A DNA stretch of 64,000 bases from Trypanosoma brucei (Eukaryota), in assembly GCA_000002445.1 (NCBI GenBank), contig CH464491.1, positions 2,624,001-2,688,000 on the forward strand. The letters run 5' to 3'. Both the position numbers and the translations under genes were made by a program. Shown in pieces: positions 57,596 through 64,000 of the stretch (position 1 is the first letter of the stretch; every line of letters starts with the position of its first letter). The notes beneath the pieces are model-generated. The model was not told the DNA's origin and did not search any database. It saw nothing but the letters and a program-made list of their open reading frames with translations.

Positions 57596-58771
57596 ATGTT
57601 TACCCGCCCACTCTTCAATTTTTCACCACGCCATCTGTGCCTCTTTTTAAGTGCTCACAGTTCCCCTCCAAGTCTTCGCGAACCAATGAGTCTTCGCGAG
57701 GACTGGGGTCGTCTTGTGGACGAGGTATGTAACATGGATAGCACTGAACCGCTCCCAGAAGAGTTTGTTCCCTCAGAATTCCTCCCTGGGGGTTGCGAAC
57801 TCCCTGCTGACTTGTTGCACTACCTCCGGAGCGGAGCAAATGCTTTTGAGGCTGAAACTGCTGATCTTTTTCAGCCGCAAACTTCCACTGAGGAGGGGTT
57901 TCACGCTGCACCCATTGTCAGTCGTTACGGCACGGCGGGAACCCTACGCAACCTAGTTGGTGATCGAGGCGAGAACCCGCGACTACCGAGGCACGAGGGA
58001 CCGAACTTTTACGAGGCCTATCGCGCTCACGCCGCCTTGAACGGCGAGGGAGGCGGAAGGAACAACCTCACTTCCTCTGCTTCTGCCGCTGCGGCGGCAG
58101 GAAGTGCGGGGGCTAACAATATTCTTCGTTCAATTGGGAATGGGATTCGTATCAATCCTGGATTCATGGTGCCGGAGTATCATTCGCAGAGGAACCGGAA
58201 ACTTAACTTTGTCCCCCTGATTCTCATTTCGCCTTCTGTTTCTTCTGTACTTCAGGTGATCAACATCAAAGATTTCTTGGAGGATGGTGTTTACGTTGAG
58301 CCGTCCTCACGGTTCTTGAACCCCGTAACGGGCGACATGAACGTTGAAGACGCGCCGAAGCACATCACTGTCAAACCGGGAAGCTTCCTAGATGCGGACA
58401 AGTACCGTGTAGCGTACAGAGAGTTTCGTGTTGTGAATGGACCAAAACAGGTAAAGAACTGGAACCATGTCTGTGCGTGCATCGTAGACGGCAATGAGTG
58501 GCAATTTAACCGTTGGTTTCCAGACGAAGTTCCTTCCTTGTGTGTGAGCCGACTTTTTCAGCGTGTGTGTGGTTTTTTACCTTACTTTGAGGAGGATAAA
58601 CCACCCAAGGCCCTTCAGGAGTGGCATGTTACTCCGTTGAAGTTGACACGCCGCGTTGTGAAGTCGCACACTCACATTCGCCAGGCGTCTGCCTTTTGGG
58701 AGCACTTGTACCTGTTTCTGGACACACATCCCCTCTTTAAGTTGTTCACCGTCCCGCCGGACCAGCCGTAG
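57596..58771 (+). CDS. Cdc73/parafibromin-like protein (PAF1-complex subunit), C-terminal Ras-like domain
   Basis: C-terminal ..KNWNHVCACIVDGNEWQFNRWFPDE.. matches the conserved Cdc73_C block (..drVvAVfv.G..WQFk.Wp..). Confidence 0.6.
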   Translation: MFTRPLFNFSPRHLCLFLSAHSSPPSLREPMSLREDWGRLVDEVCNMDSTEPLPEEFVPSEFLPGGCELPADLLHYLRSGANAFEAETADLFQPQTSTEEGFHAAPIVSRYGTAGTLRNLVGDRGENPRLPRHEGPNFYEAYRAHAALNGEGGGRNNLTSSASAAAAAGSAGANNILRSIGNGIRINPGFMVPEYHSQRNRKLNFVPLILISPSVSSVLQVINIKDFLEDGVYVEPSSRFLNPVTGDMNVEDAPKHITVKPGSFLDADKYRVAYREFRVVNGPKQVKNWNHVCACIVDGNEWQFNRWFPDEVPSLCVSRLFQRVCGFLPYFEEDKPPKALQEWHVTPLKLTRRVVKSHTHIRQASAFWEHLYLFLDTHPLFKLFTVPPDQP

Positions 58772-59577: not shown

Positions 59578-60207
59578 ATGCTTCGCCGTGTCGGCCGCAC
59601 TACGTGTTCCCCTGCAGCGTGTCAACTACGTCACACAACCATCCTTTCTGTCCGCAAGGGTGATACGGTTGTGCTACTCGGTGATCGACAGGTTACCCTT
59701 GGTGAGCGCATTGTCGCCAAATCCAGTGCATGCAAGCTGCGTCGCATTAATGATGATGTTGTCATTGGTTTCGCGGGGAGCACTGCGGACGCGATTTCTC
59801 TTATGGAGAAACTTGAGAACAAAATTGGTGAGTTCCCAAATCAGCTTACCCGTGCGGCTGTTGAGCTAGCTAAAGAGTGGCGTACTGATCGCGCACTTCG
59901 CCGGTTGGAAGCCTCACTCATTGTTTGCAGTGCTGAGGAGACTCTGGAAATTGATGGACAGGGTAATGTTATTACGCCAGAGGCTGATGGAATTGTGGCA
60001 ATTGGGTCCGGTGGAACCTTCGCGAAGGCAGCGGCACGGGCGCTCATTGATGTGGACGGTTACGATGCGGAGAAAATCGCGCGGAAAGCGATGCGCATCG
60101 CCACAGATATCGATGTTTTCAGCAACGAACACTGGGATGTTGAGGTACTCAAGCGGAAATCCGAGAAGCAGGAAGGGTCGGAAGCGTCGGCGAAAACTAG
60201 CGAGTAA
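59578..60207 (+). CDS. hslV: ATP-dependent protease subunit HslV (bacterial-type proteasome-like peptidase), mitochondrial
   Basis: TTILSVRKGDTVVLLGDRQVTLGERIVAKSSACKLRRINDDVVIGFAGSTADAISLMEKLE.. closely parallels bacterial HslV from its mature N-terminal Thr (TTIL..). 19-aa Arg-rich leader (MLRRVGRTTCSPAACQLRH) precedes it. Confidence 0.92.
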   Translation: MLRRVGRTTCSPAACQLRHTTILSVRKGDTVVLLGDRQVTLGERIVAKSSACKLRRINDDVVIGFAGSTADAISLMEKLENKIGEFPNQLTRAAVELAKEWRTDRALRRLEASLIVCSAEETLEIDGQGNVITPEADGIVAIGSGGTFAKAAARALIDVDGYDAEKIARKAMRIATDIDVFSNEHWDVEVLKRKSEKQEGSEASAKTSE

Positions 60208-61896: not shown

Positions 61897-62523
61897 ATGG
61901 TGGAAAAGCACATGTACGACGGTTGGTCGTATGAGCGGCTCCGTCAACAACGCAACCGCGCTCACTTCCTTCTTGAGGAACCCTACCGGTTTATCACAGT
62001 TTTGCTTCATCATGGAAAGTTGTACGCCATCGATAGTCCATGTTATCACGGCTCCGGACCACTTGGCGAGGGTCAGATAGTTGATTTAGAAGATATGGAT
62101 ACTGTTGTGACATCAGGAGACGGAAAACTCGGGTCCTCACGAGTGCCTTGTTTACGCTGTCCATGGCACTCTTACCTTATTTCCATTGAAACGGGGGAAT
62201 TGGTGGAGGTGCTGTCAGTTGAAGGCACTAAAACTGGGAGAGAGAATCAAGCTGATAATGATGTTGCAGAAGAGATGCCGTCTTATCCACTTCAGCACCG
62301 CTTTGGCACTTGCGGAGGGGCCACACACGTCTCCCGGAAGGGTGTCGTTCAGCGTACTCATCAGGTGTCTCTCGATGAGGCCACTGGAATTTTAACAATT
62401 GAAGTGGAAGATGAGGAGGTGATGCGCCGACGCCCGTTGCCATCCGACAAAGTGGCGGGAGATATTAAGAACGGGGCCCTCACCATGCAAATATTTGACA
62501 TAAAGGCCAGAGGGCTTGAGTAA
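61897..62523 (+). CDS. Rieske [2Fe-2S] domain-containing protein (208 aa)
   Basis: Box I CYHGSGPL and box II CLRCPWHSY (CxH..CxxH pattern spaced ~35 aa apart) within a beta-rich region. Confidence 0.7.
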   Translation: MVEKHMYDGWSYERLRQQRNRAHFLLEEPYRFITVLLHHGKLYAIDSPCYHGSGPLGEGQIVDLEDMDTVVTSGDGKLGSSRVPCLRCPWHSYLISIETGELVEVLSVEGTKTGRENQADNDVAEEMPSYPLQHRFGTCGGATHVSRKGVVQRTHQVSLDEATGILTIEVEDEEVMRRRPLPSDKVAGDIKNGALTMQIFDIKARGLE

Positions 62524-63104
62524 ATGGCAAGCACTTTTCGGGAAGAGAGGCGATGTCATGTGCAACTTTCCTCTCTTTTTTTTTCTTTTTGCAGATGTGT
62601 TTGTTGTGTAAATTTTGATGTTGGGTTATGAAAGTCCGATTGCAGTGGGGGCACTACCCGACCCGCAGTCTTGGGATTACTGACTTTGTGTGTGGGTTTA
62701 TGTGCATTTGGAAAAGAAAAATAAAGGTGTATATTTTGAAGTTGAAGTTGTTTGGACTTCACTGATATCGGTTGTTTCTTCTAGCTCTTCTATTGTGGTA
62801 CTCGTGTGGGACCTATCTTTCCCTCTTTTCTTTCGGCATGTATGAAAGTGTTTTAAGACAGGGATAGTTGAGTAGCAACAGTAACACCAACCACAAATAC
62901 AGCTGCGGTGGTGGGGTATAAGAAAGACCTGAAGTTAAAAAAATAAATACCTAAAAAAAAAAGAACAAAAGGTAACTTTTCCTCCATTAAGATTTAACAA
63001 AGAAAAGGGTGACAGGGGGGGGGCAAGGGGTTAAGCAAGACGTTTGTTAAGCAAAAGGGTGTGCCGTTTGGTGGGAGGGCGTAATTAAGTGAGAGAAATA
63101 GCCA

Positions 63105-64000
63105 AATGTGTGACGAGTTCTTTGGAGACTTGTTAGAAGAAGAGTTGGAAAATTTGGGAAAAGCTGCATTTGTCGTTGGTGTTTCCGGTTTTCTTTTGAA
63201 GCAAGCGATAGGGGCGCGTAGTTTTCTTCGTGGGGACCCCGTGCAAAACAGCATTGTTGCGCACCTTCCCCAGGGATATGACCGGAGCATCATTGCCGCT
63301 CGAGTCAGCCAACCGCTCACAAAAAGCCTAATGATCGACGCACTGGCTATTGGCGCAATAAAAGAACGGTTACGGCGTGCCACTACTCCAGGTGATAAGG
63401 TGGCTATCTTCTCTGAACTCTTTAACACAACACTCGCGGGGATTCTTAGTGCCGCCTACATTCACAGTTTGACTATCACACTTCATGTGATGAGGCACAC
63501 AATGTCTCTCTTGGTATTCGTTCTTGGAAAGCAGGAAGCAAGCAGCGGTACGCGCCGCGCTAATACTTCCTTGCTCTCCAAATTTCGTAGTTGGTGGCAT
63601 CAGGGCACACAGAATTTCATGTTGCAGACACTCTTGGAAAACATGACTCAGCAAATGGAAGCTTCACCCTTCTCGCTCATGATGGATGATGATAATATGA
63701 AGACTGAGGATGTGAAGCAGGGATTTTGTGTAGACGCGCTTCTGCGGCTCGCTGTTCCTCGGGTTGTGGATACTGCACTCCATGTAGTGAATACCACGTT
63801 GGAGGGCAGAGATTCACAACTTTTTAACCTGACGGGAAGCGTGACCGAGGGCGAGATGCGTGATCTACTGCAAACATTGTGCGCAAAATTTGTTTCACGT
63901 GCCACACTCTCGGATTGGCTCACACCACCTTCTGAGGAATTAAAAGACTCGGATGGTGGCGTCTTAAACACCTCACCTCCTCCACAAGGTATGGGGGACG
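63105..64000 (+). CDS. partial CDS (5' part, runs off window end); hypothetical protein with N-terminal hydrophobic segment; possible divergent PEX3
   Basis: Not in supplied ORF track (no stop inside the window). Manual translation from ATG 63105 gives an uninterrupted frame to 64000: MCDEFFGDLLEEELENLGKAAFVVGVSGFLLKQAIGARSF.. N-terminal TM-like helix then helical domain. Position after HslV/Rieske matches my recollection of where the divergent trypanosome PEX3 lies (unverified). Confidence 0.45.

What the first reader, a model, noticed from the sequence alone, without database searches (positions are those of the whole stretch)
63105..64000. Unlisted partial ORF running off the window end; candidate divergent PEX3
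Manual translation from ATG 63105 gives ≥298 codons with no stop to position 64000 (hence missing from the ORF track). The minus-strand ORFs 62994-63428, 63370-63654 and 63648-63971 are its shadows. The product starts with an acidic stretch, then a hydrophobic helix (AAFVVGVSGFLLKQAIG) and a helical domain, which is PEX3-like topology. Its position directly after HslV and the Rieske gene matches my unverified memory of where the highly divergent trypanosome PEX3 (glycosome biogenesis) lies.
Basis: inference. Interest (0 to 1): 0.5.

Follow-up and report, generated by a model that had tools for sequence, protein, structure and literature searches.

The report
Trypanosoma brucei PEX3 gene, truncated

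Summary
The ORF is real. Its ATG is at 63106-63108, one base after the stated 63105. An in-frame TAA lies at 63082, and 298 codons run open to the window end (chance about 3e-7).

It is the 5' 63% of TbPEX3:
- The published TbPex3 (Tb927.11.10260) forward cloning primer matches 63106-63127 exactly.
- All five residues mutated in that paper (L89, K98, F102, L105, Y118) are at the stated positions.
- The product is 99% identical to a 474-aa T. b. equiperdum protein encoded in the same order, HslV, Rieske, this gene.

Sequence methods alone do not recognise it as PEX3. Pfam and NCBIfam give no hit, a PDB profile search gives E 0.23, and hhalign gives E 0.0014.

The weak sequence alignments place K98, F102 and L105 on human K100, W104 and L107, the PEX19-binding residues.

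PEX19 binding, glycosomal location and essentiality were published in 2019. Novelty: already known. Interest: low.

The parts
63106..64000 (+). Coding sequence of TbPEX3 (Tb927.11.10260), codons 1-298 plus one base, cut by the window end. The full gene has 474 codons plus a stop, so it should end about 530 bases beyond the window.
   Evidence: Open frame. 99% identical to residues 1-298 of P0001, 474 aa. Exact match of the published cloning primer. Full-length gene seen at L001 6001-7425.
63082..63084 (+). Nearest upstream in-frame stop (TAA). It fixes ATG 63106 as the first possible start.
   Evidence: The N-terminus MxDEFLGDLFEEE is conserved across Trypanosoma species.
63106..63237 (+). Residues 1-44, the N-terminal membrane-anchor region: acidic stretch 1-16, then the hydrophobic helix. 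Residues 20-36, AAFVVGVSGFLLKQAIG, occupy 63163-63213.
   Evidence: Sequence. Kyte-Doolittle 19-residue maximum of 1.38 at residues 17-35. One long N-terminal helix (residues 3-41) in the AF2 model. [quoted passage not shown]
63238..63930 (+). Residues 45-275, the first part of the cytosolic all-helical PEX3 bundle.
63397..63420 (+). Residues 98-105 (KVAIFSEL), the PEX19-docking motif K-x3-[F/W]-x2-L at the start of the long helix 95-151. F102 is at 63409-63411 and L105 at 63418-63420.
   Evidence: hhalign pairs K98/F102/L105 with human K100/W104/L107. hmmsearch pairs the same helix with yeast Pex3 residues 103-138. K98 is kept in 24 of 25 family members, and position 102 is W in 11 and F in 3 of 25. 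F102A and L105A abolish PEX19 binding (PMC6658674).
63931..63999 (+). Residues 276-298, the beginning of a disordered, low-complexity insertion (residues about 276-358 of the full protein) that splits the helical bundle.
   Evidence: pLDDT below 50 for 286-347 and no secondary structure over about 280-358. The alignment has no consensus here, and the region varies widely in length across the family.
62524..63105 (+). Intergenic region between the Rieske gene and PEX3. It has polypyrimidine tracts at 62566-62590 and 62816-62834, which are candidate signals for trans-splicing of PEX3 mRNA and polyadenylation of the upstream mRNA (inference only).
   Evidence: Tracts listed. The role is inferred from established trypanosomatid mRNA processing and was not tested here.
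62994..63971 (-). Three minus-strand ORFs (62994-63428, 63370-63654, 63648-63971) that are antisense shadows of the PEX3 coding sequence, not genes.
   Evidence: for the coordinates. Codon-usage scores of -0.04, +0.04 and -0.09 bits per codon, against +0.115 for the PEX3 frame. Every long genic ORF in the window is on the plus strand.

Best explanation
Window 63106-64000 (+) is the 5' 63% of the Trypanosoma brucei PEX3 gene (Tb927.11.10260; 474 codons in full). It lies in a plus-strand polycistronic unit directly after the HslV and Rieske genes.

The product is the highly divergent kinetoplastid orthologue of peroxin 3. An N-terminal segment (residues 1-44, hydrophobic helix about 17-36) anchors it in the glycosomal membrane. 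The rest folds into the PEX3 helical bundle on the cytosolic face.

The bundle offers a hydrophobic groove around K98, F102 and L105, equivalent to human K100, W104 and L107. That groove docks the N-terminal helix of the cytosolic receptor PEX19, which arrives loaded with newly made glycosomal membrane proteins, so that they can be inserted into the membrane.

Shown here: the ORF, its identity with the published gene, the family, the PEX3 fold, and the motif correspondence. Taken from the literature on this same gene: PEX19 binding and its loss in F102A and L105A, glycosomal localisation, and lethality of knock-down. Inferred: the trans-splicing signals upstream.
For: The open frame and coding statistics are.

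The forward cloning primer of TbPex3 from PMC6658674 matches 63106-63127 exactly, and all five mutated residues sit at the published numbers. The gene-specific part of the reverse primer corresponds to the 3' end of the full gene in L001, read by eye rather than found by search.

The product is 99% identical over 298 aa to the 474-aa T. b. equiperdum protein, and orthologues exist in T. congolense, T. grayi, T. theileri, T. melophagium and T. vivax. Gene order is conserved: HslV, Rieske, this gene. Against T. b. equiperdum there are 5 synonymous and 2 non-synonymous differences.

hhalign of the family against vertebrate PEX3 gives E 0.0014 and aligns K98, F102 and L105 to K100, W104 and L107. 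The PDB profile search picks the same helix in yeast Pex3.

PMC8721105 and PMC12956874 use TbPEX3 lacking residues 1-44 as the soluble PEX19-binding domain.
Against: Sequence-only tests run here do not reach significance for PEX3:
- Pfam Peroxin-3 gives no hit even at E up to 10, for the fragment and for six full-length orthologues.
- NCBIfam gives no hit.
- hmmsearch of the family profile against PDB sequences gives yeast Pex3 only at E 0.23, level with unrelated proteins.
- The hhalign probability is only 17.8%. That run used no secondary-structure scoring and a narrow vertebrate-only profile.

The hydrophobic segment is weak for a transmembrane helix. Its Kyte-Doolittle maximum is 1.38, it contains a lysine, and it is no more hydrophobic than internal helices of the bundle. 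Membrane insertion therefore rests on the literature.

The window contains only 298 of 474 codons. The C-terminal third of the bundle was studied on the near-identical T. b. equiperdum protein, not on window sequence.
Confidence: 0.97

Rival explanations
1. A PEX3-fold protein that is a paralogue or functional offshoot, not the working PEX3 of the parasite.
For: Sequence identity to canonical PEX3 is only 8-12%. No curated PEX3 model detects it. It carries a large disordered insertion absent from the human structure.
Against: The exact primer match and residue numbering tie this ORF to the gene that was shown to bind TbPEX19, localise to glycosomes and be essential. The exhaustive profile search found one family, with no second T. 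brucei representative. The PEX19-contact residues are conserved in position.
Confidence: 0.02
2. A chance open frame in non-coding DNA, or the real genes are the minus-strand ORFs 62994-63971.
For: The ORF was missing from the mechanical ORF list, and three ORFs of 94-144 aa lie antisense to it.
Against: The ORF is unlisted only because it runs off the window end. The chance of 298 open codons is about 3e-7, and this is the only stop-free frame and the only one with a positive codon score. It has full-length homologues across trypanosomatids with E down to 1e-190. Long ORFs on the minus strand all overlap longer plus-strand ORFs.
Confidence: 0.005
3. The protein starts at a downstream methionine (for example M76) and lacks the N-terminal anchor.
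For: No transcript or trans-splice-site data were available here, and the hydrophobic segment is weak.
Against: The first 20 residues (MxDEFLGDLFEEE...GK) are conserved among six Trypanosoma species, with M1, D8, E13, G18 and K19 invariant. Published constructs use this ATG, and removing residues 1-44 was needed to obtain soluble protein.
Confidence: 0.01

Closest known systems
TbPEX3 / TbPex3, Tb927.11.10260 (Banerjee et al. 2019, PMC6658674; Kalel et al. 2019, BBA-MCR 1866:118520, as cited in PMC8721105)
   Same: It is this gene. The cloning primer matches exactly, the residue numbering is identical (L89, K98, F102, L105, Y118), the full length of the near-identical orthologue is 474 aa, and the chromosomal context is the same.
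   Different: Nothing of substance. The window holds only codons 1-298. There are two amino-acid differences (F6L, N153D) from the T. b. equiperdum copy.
Human PEX3 (PDB 3MK4, 3AJB) and yeast Pex3 (PDB 9I5R), Pfam PF04882 Peroxin-3
   Different: Identity is only 8-12%, and the Pfam model does not detect it. The key aromatic residue is F in T. brucei rather than W. An insertion of about 85 disordered residues (276-358) splits the bundle. The protein is about 100 residues longer than human PEX3. The organelle served is the glycosome.
Divergent euglenozoan PEX3 family (Leishmania LmjF.36.4010 and relatives; PMC6658674, PMC9512073)
   Same: The exhaustive HMM search retrieves 24 representatives sharing the N-terminal LPQGYDR motif, the K-x3-W/F motif and the C-terminal FCEE..R..C end.
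   Different: Members differ greatly in the length of the central insertion (438-801 aa overall). Most distant members keep W where T. brucei has F.

Membership tests
TbPEX3 locus (Tb927.11.10260) | Nucleotide identity with the published gene: the primers used to clone it must match | tested here: met
   The forward primer ATGTGTGACGAGTTCTTTGGAG matches window 63106-63127 exactly. The gene-specific part of the reverse primer corresponds, by eye, to the printed 3' end (...TAGAGTTACATGCCGCGATTTA-TAA) of the full gene in L001; the script's search for the whole primer found no exact match.
TbPEX3 locus (Tb927.11.10260) | Published residue numbering: L89, K98, F102, L105, Y118 | tested here: met
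   All five residues are found at those positions in the translation from 63106.
PEX3 (peroxin 3) | Fold of the cytosolic domain superposes on solved PEX3 structures | tested here: met
PEX3 (peroxin 3) | Significant match to the curated sequence model (Pfam PF04882 Peroxin-3) | tested here: not met
   No hit at E up to 1 for the fragment, or at E up to 10 for six full-length orthologues. Ten distant family members also gave no hit. This is a sensitivity limit of a detection tool, not a biological criterion. The discoverers likewise report that BLAST failed and that only HHpred (above 95%) found it.
PEX3 (peroxin 3) | Profile-profile sequence homology to canonical PEX3 | tested here: inconclusive
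   hhalign of the family against 17 vertebrate PEX3 sequences gave E 0.0014 but probability 17.8%, over Tb 71-265 and Hs 75-219. The alignment register agrees with the published one.
PEX3 (peroxin 3) | Conserved PEX19-docking residues (human K100, W104, L107) at the apex helix | tested here: met
   K98, F102 and L105 align to K100, W104 and L107. K98 is kept in 24 of 25 family members, position 102 is aromatic (W or F) in 14 of 25, and position 105 is aliphatic or Met in 23 of 25.
PEX3 (peroxin 3) | N-terminal membrane anchor preceding the cytosolic domain | tested here: inconclusive
   A hydrophobic helix at 17-36 is present and modelled as part of one long helix, 3-41. Its hydropathy is only 1.38. 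The literature treats residues 1-44 as the transmembrane domain.
PEX3 (peroxin 3) | Binds PEX19, localises to the peroxisome or glycosome membrane, and is required for organelle biogenesis | not testable with these tools
   Published for this gene: yeast two-hybrid and pull-down with TbPEX19, loss of binding in F102A and L105A, glycosomal localisation, lethal RNAi (PMC6658674; PMC8721105).

The most novel reading that the evidence does not exclude
The disordered, low-complexity insertion that splits the PEX3 bundle is absent from the human PEX3 chains, which the model nevertheless covers almost completely. In the full protein it spans residues about 276-358 and begins at window 63931. Across the euglenozoan family, overall protein length varies from 438 to 801 aa. 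It might carry a parasite-specific function rather than being a neutral linker, for example docking a euglenozoan-only factor in the PEX19/PEX38 pathway or a trafficking signal. Nothing here tests this. It is simply not excluded.
Probability: 0.1. Interest if true: 0.35.

Novelty: already known. Interest (0 to 1): 0.08.

Why it matters
For discovery, this is a correct re-identification of a gene characterised in 2019, not a new finding.

PEX3 is the earliest-acting factor in glycosome membrane biogenesis. It is essential in T. brucei and is so far diverged from human PEX3 (about 10% identity) that the PEX3-PEX19 interface is being pursued as a trypanocidal drug target (PMC8326762, PMC8721105).

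Tried and rejected
- Translation from the literal coordinate 63105 gave the wrong frame with many stops. The start was corrected to 63106.
- Pfam on the fragment and on six orthologues at E up to 10 gave no Peroxin-3 hit.
- NCBIfam gave nothing for the ORF.
- Pfam on ten distant family members, tried as a transitive link to Peroxin-3, gave nothing.
- hmmsearch of the 6-sequence profile against PDB sequences returned only a chance catalase hit.
- The 25-sequence profile placed yeast Pex3 at E 0.23, among unrelated DLG4 hits. This is not significant, though it falls on the right helix.
- The word-indexed profile search found no members beyond the first six. The exhaustive representative search was needed.
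- The first AF2 run, with six sequences, was poor (pLDDT 50). Its Foldseek hits to PEX3 were only marginal, E 0.036-0.2. It was superseded by the 25-sequence model.
- hhalign against a vertebrate-only PEX3 profile gave a modest score.
- The minus-strand ORFs were considered as genes and rejected.
- An alternative downstream start was considered and rejected on N-terminal conservation.

Full report
**1. The observation**

The sequence at 63100-63109 reads agccaaATGt, so the ATG occupies 63106-63108, not 63105. Translating literally from 63105 gives a frame full of stops. From 63106 the frame is open for 298 codons to the end of the window.

The nearest upstream in-frame stop is TAA at 63082, with no ATG in between.

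From the window's base composition, the chance of 298 consecutive non-stop codons is about 3e-7. Over 63106-63999 this is the only one of six frames without stops. It is also the only one with a positive codon-usage log-odds score against the three neighbouring genes: +0.115 bits per codon, against -0.10 to -0.37 for the others.

The three minus-strand ORFs exist at the stated coordinates but score near zero or negative. Every long ORF in the window that is not nested in a longer one lies on the plus strand, as expected for a trypanosomatid polycistronic unit. The ORF was missing from the mechanical list only because it runs off the window end.

**2. What it is**

A protein search gave a 474-aa Trypanosoma brucei equiperdum 'hypothetical protein' at 99% identity over all 298 residues (E 4e-190). 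Orthologues appear in T. congolense (61%), T. grayi, T. theileri and T. melophagium, and later T. vivax and Angomonas. None carries a Pfam domain.

Banerjee et al. 2019 (PMC6658674) identified TbPex3 as Tb927.11.10260. They cloned it with the forward primer CCCAAGCTT-ATGTGTGACGAGTTCTTTGGAG, and the gene-specific 22 bases match window 63106-63127 exactly. The residues they mutated (L89, K98, F102, L105, Y118) are all found at those numbers in the translation.

The genomic locus of the T. b. equiperdum protein (L001) shows the full 1425-base gene. The gene order is HslV, Rieske_4, this gene, V-SNARE_C, peptidase M14. The gene-specific part of the reverse primer corresponds, by eye, to the printed 3' end of the gene there; the script's search for the whole primer found no exact match.

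The window and L001 are near-identical in DNA. In the coding part there are 5 synonymous and 2 non-synonymous differences, F6L and N153D. The window's F6 agrees with the published primer, which was designed on strain TREU927. By inference, the window is probably T. b. brucei chromosome 11.

The upstream neighbours are confirmed as HslV (NCBIfam equivalog, 219 bits against a cut-off of 137) and a Rieske-type protein (Pfam Rieske_4, E 9e-11).

**3. Independent test of PEX3 homology**

Sequence models fail:
- Pfam Peroxin-3 is not hit at E up to 1 by the fragment, or at E up to 10 by six full-length orthologues.
- NCBIfam gives nothing.
- A 6-sequence profile finds no PEX3 among PDB sequences.

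An exhaustive HMM search of 1.84 billion representatives found 24 family members. Ten of the more distant ones, P0019-P0028, again have no Pfam match, and several of them are unnamed environmental sequences.

A 25-sequence alignment (A2) was compared by hhalign with 17 vertebrate PEX3 sequences (A3). I recalled the human sequence from memory; it matched PDB 3MK4 over residues 41-373 except for one substitution at C235. hhalign gave E 0.0014 but probability only 17.8%, aligning Tb 71-265 with Hs 75-219.

In that alignment KVAIFSEL pairs with KLEIWEDL. So K98, F102 and L105 fall on K100, W104 and L107, which is the register published from mutagenesis. hmmsearch of A2 against PDB sequences picks the same helix in yeast Pex3 (9i5r residues 103-138), but only at E 0.23.

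Within the family, K98 is kept in 24 of 25 sequences. Position 102 is W in 11, F in 3 and aliphatic or Met in the other 11. Position 105 is aliphatic or Met in 23 of 25.

**4. Structure**

AlphaFold2 with six sequences gave a poor model (pLDDT 50). Its top three Foldseek hits in the PDB were nevertheless human and yeast PEX3 (E 0.036-0.2).

With the 25-sequence alignment the model reached pLDDT 79.5 and pTM 0.73, with 248 residues at 90 or above. It is all-helical, and residues about 286-352 are disordered.

Foldseek then gave 9i5r (yeast Pex3) at E 2.2e-4, 3mk4 at 5.1e-4 and 3ajb at 2.7e-3, all at probability 1.00, with the fourth hit at E 0.74.

**5. How it works**

Shown here:
- an N-terminal helix with a moderately hydrophobic core, residues 17-36;
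- a PEX3-type helical bundle;
- the PEX19-docking motif at the equivalent position.

From the literature on this gene:
- the first 44 residues form the single-pass membrane anchor, and the construct lacking them is the soluble PEX19-binding domain (PMC8721105; PMC12956874);
- TbPex3 binds TbPex19 in two-hybrid and pull-down assays, and F102A or L105A abolishes binding;
- the protein is glycosomal, and RNAi is lethal (PMC6658674).

The mechanism is the canonical one. Membrane-anchored PEX3 docks cargo-loaded PEX19 so that glycosomal membrane proteins are inserted.

Inferred only: the polypyrimidine tracts at 62566-62590 and 62816-62834 serve trans-splicing and polyadenylation.

**6. Caveats**

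The window holds 298 of 474 codons. The C-terminal helices (359-472) were analysed on the 99%-identical T. b. equiperdum protein.

The hydrophobic segment is weak. Its Kyte-Doolittle maximum is 1.38, no higher than internal bundle helices. Membrane insertion therefore rests on published work.

Sequence-only evidence for PEX3 homology obtained here is sub-significant. The claim of homology rests on the predicted fold and on the identity of the gene with the published one.

**7. Verdict**

The feature is the already known, experimentally characterised TbPEX3 gene, truncated by the window edge. Novelty: already known. Interest: low.

The one feature not explained by the literature I read is the variable disordered insertion that splits the bundle. 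It is a speculative lead only.

Noticed in passing
window 1-64000: All long ORFs not nested inside a longer one lie on the plus strand. The whole window looks like one trypanosomatid polycistronic transcription unit.
   Followed up: partly
window 59578-60207 (+): Bacterial-type HslV protease subunit (NCBIfam equivalog, 219 bits against a cut-off of 137) encoded in a eukaryotic nuclear genome. From my own knowledge it is the known mitochondrial HslVU of trypanosomes. It is 99.7% identical in DNA to the T. b. equiperdum copy.
   Followed up: partly
window 61897-62523 (+): A 208-aa protein with a soluble Rieske-type ferredoxin domain (Pfam Rieske_4, E 9e-11), 100% identical in DNA to T. b. equiperdum. 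Its function was not examined.
   Followed up: no
window 57596-58771 (+): A 391-aa protein with a CDC73_C domain (E 1e-34), probably the Paf1-complex subunit Cdc73 homologue.
   Followed up: no
window 62524-63105: Intergenic region with long polypyrimidine tracts (62566-62590, 62816-62834) and A-rich and G-rich runs. The G-run at about 63016-63024 is one G longer than in T. b. equiperdum. These are candidate trans-splicing and polyadenylation signals; no transcript data were available.
   Followed up: no
P0021-P0028 (representatives): Distant, unnamed environmental members of the divergent PEX3 family (Logan, ENA and JGI assemblies) keep tryptophan at the position of TbPEX3 F102, and none hits Pfam Peroxin-3. 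They may be free-living euglenozoans and could bridge the kinetoplastid and canonical PEX3 families.
   Followed up: partly
P0013 (972 aa) and P0008 (383 aa): Two family representatives look like faulty gene models. P0013 has extra sequence before and after the PEX3-like part, which suggests a fusion with a neighbouring gene. The C-terminus of P0008 diverges into unrelated sequence after about residue 280, which suggests a frameshift.
   Followed up: no
L001 7959-8756 and 10232-13425: Downstream of PEX3 in T. b. equiperdum lie a V-SNARE_C protein (265 aa) and a large peptidase M14 protein (1192 aa). Both are beyond the end of the window.
   Followed up: no
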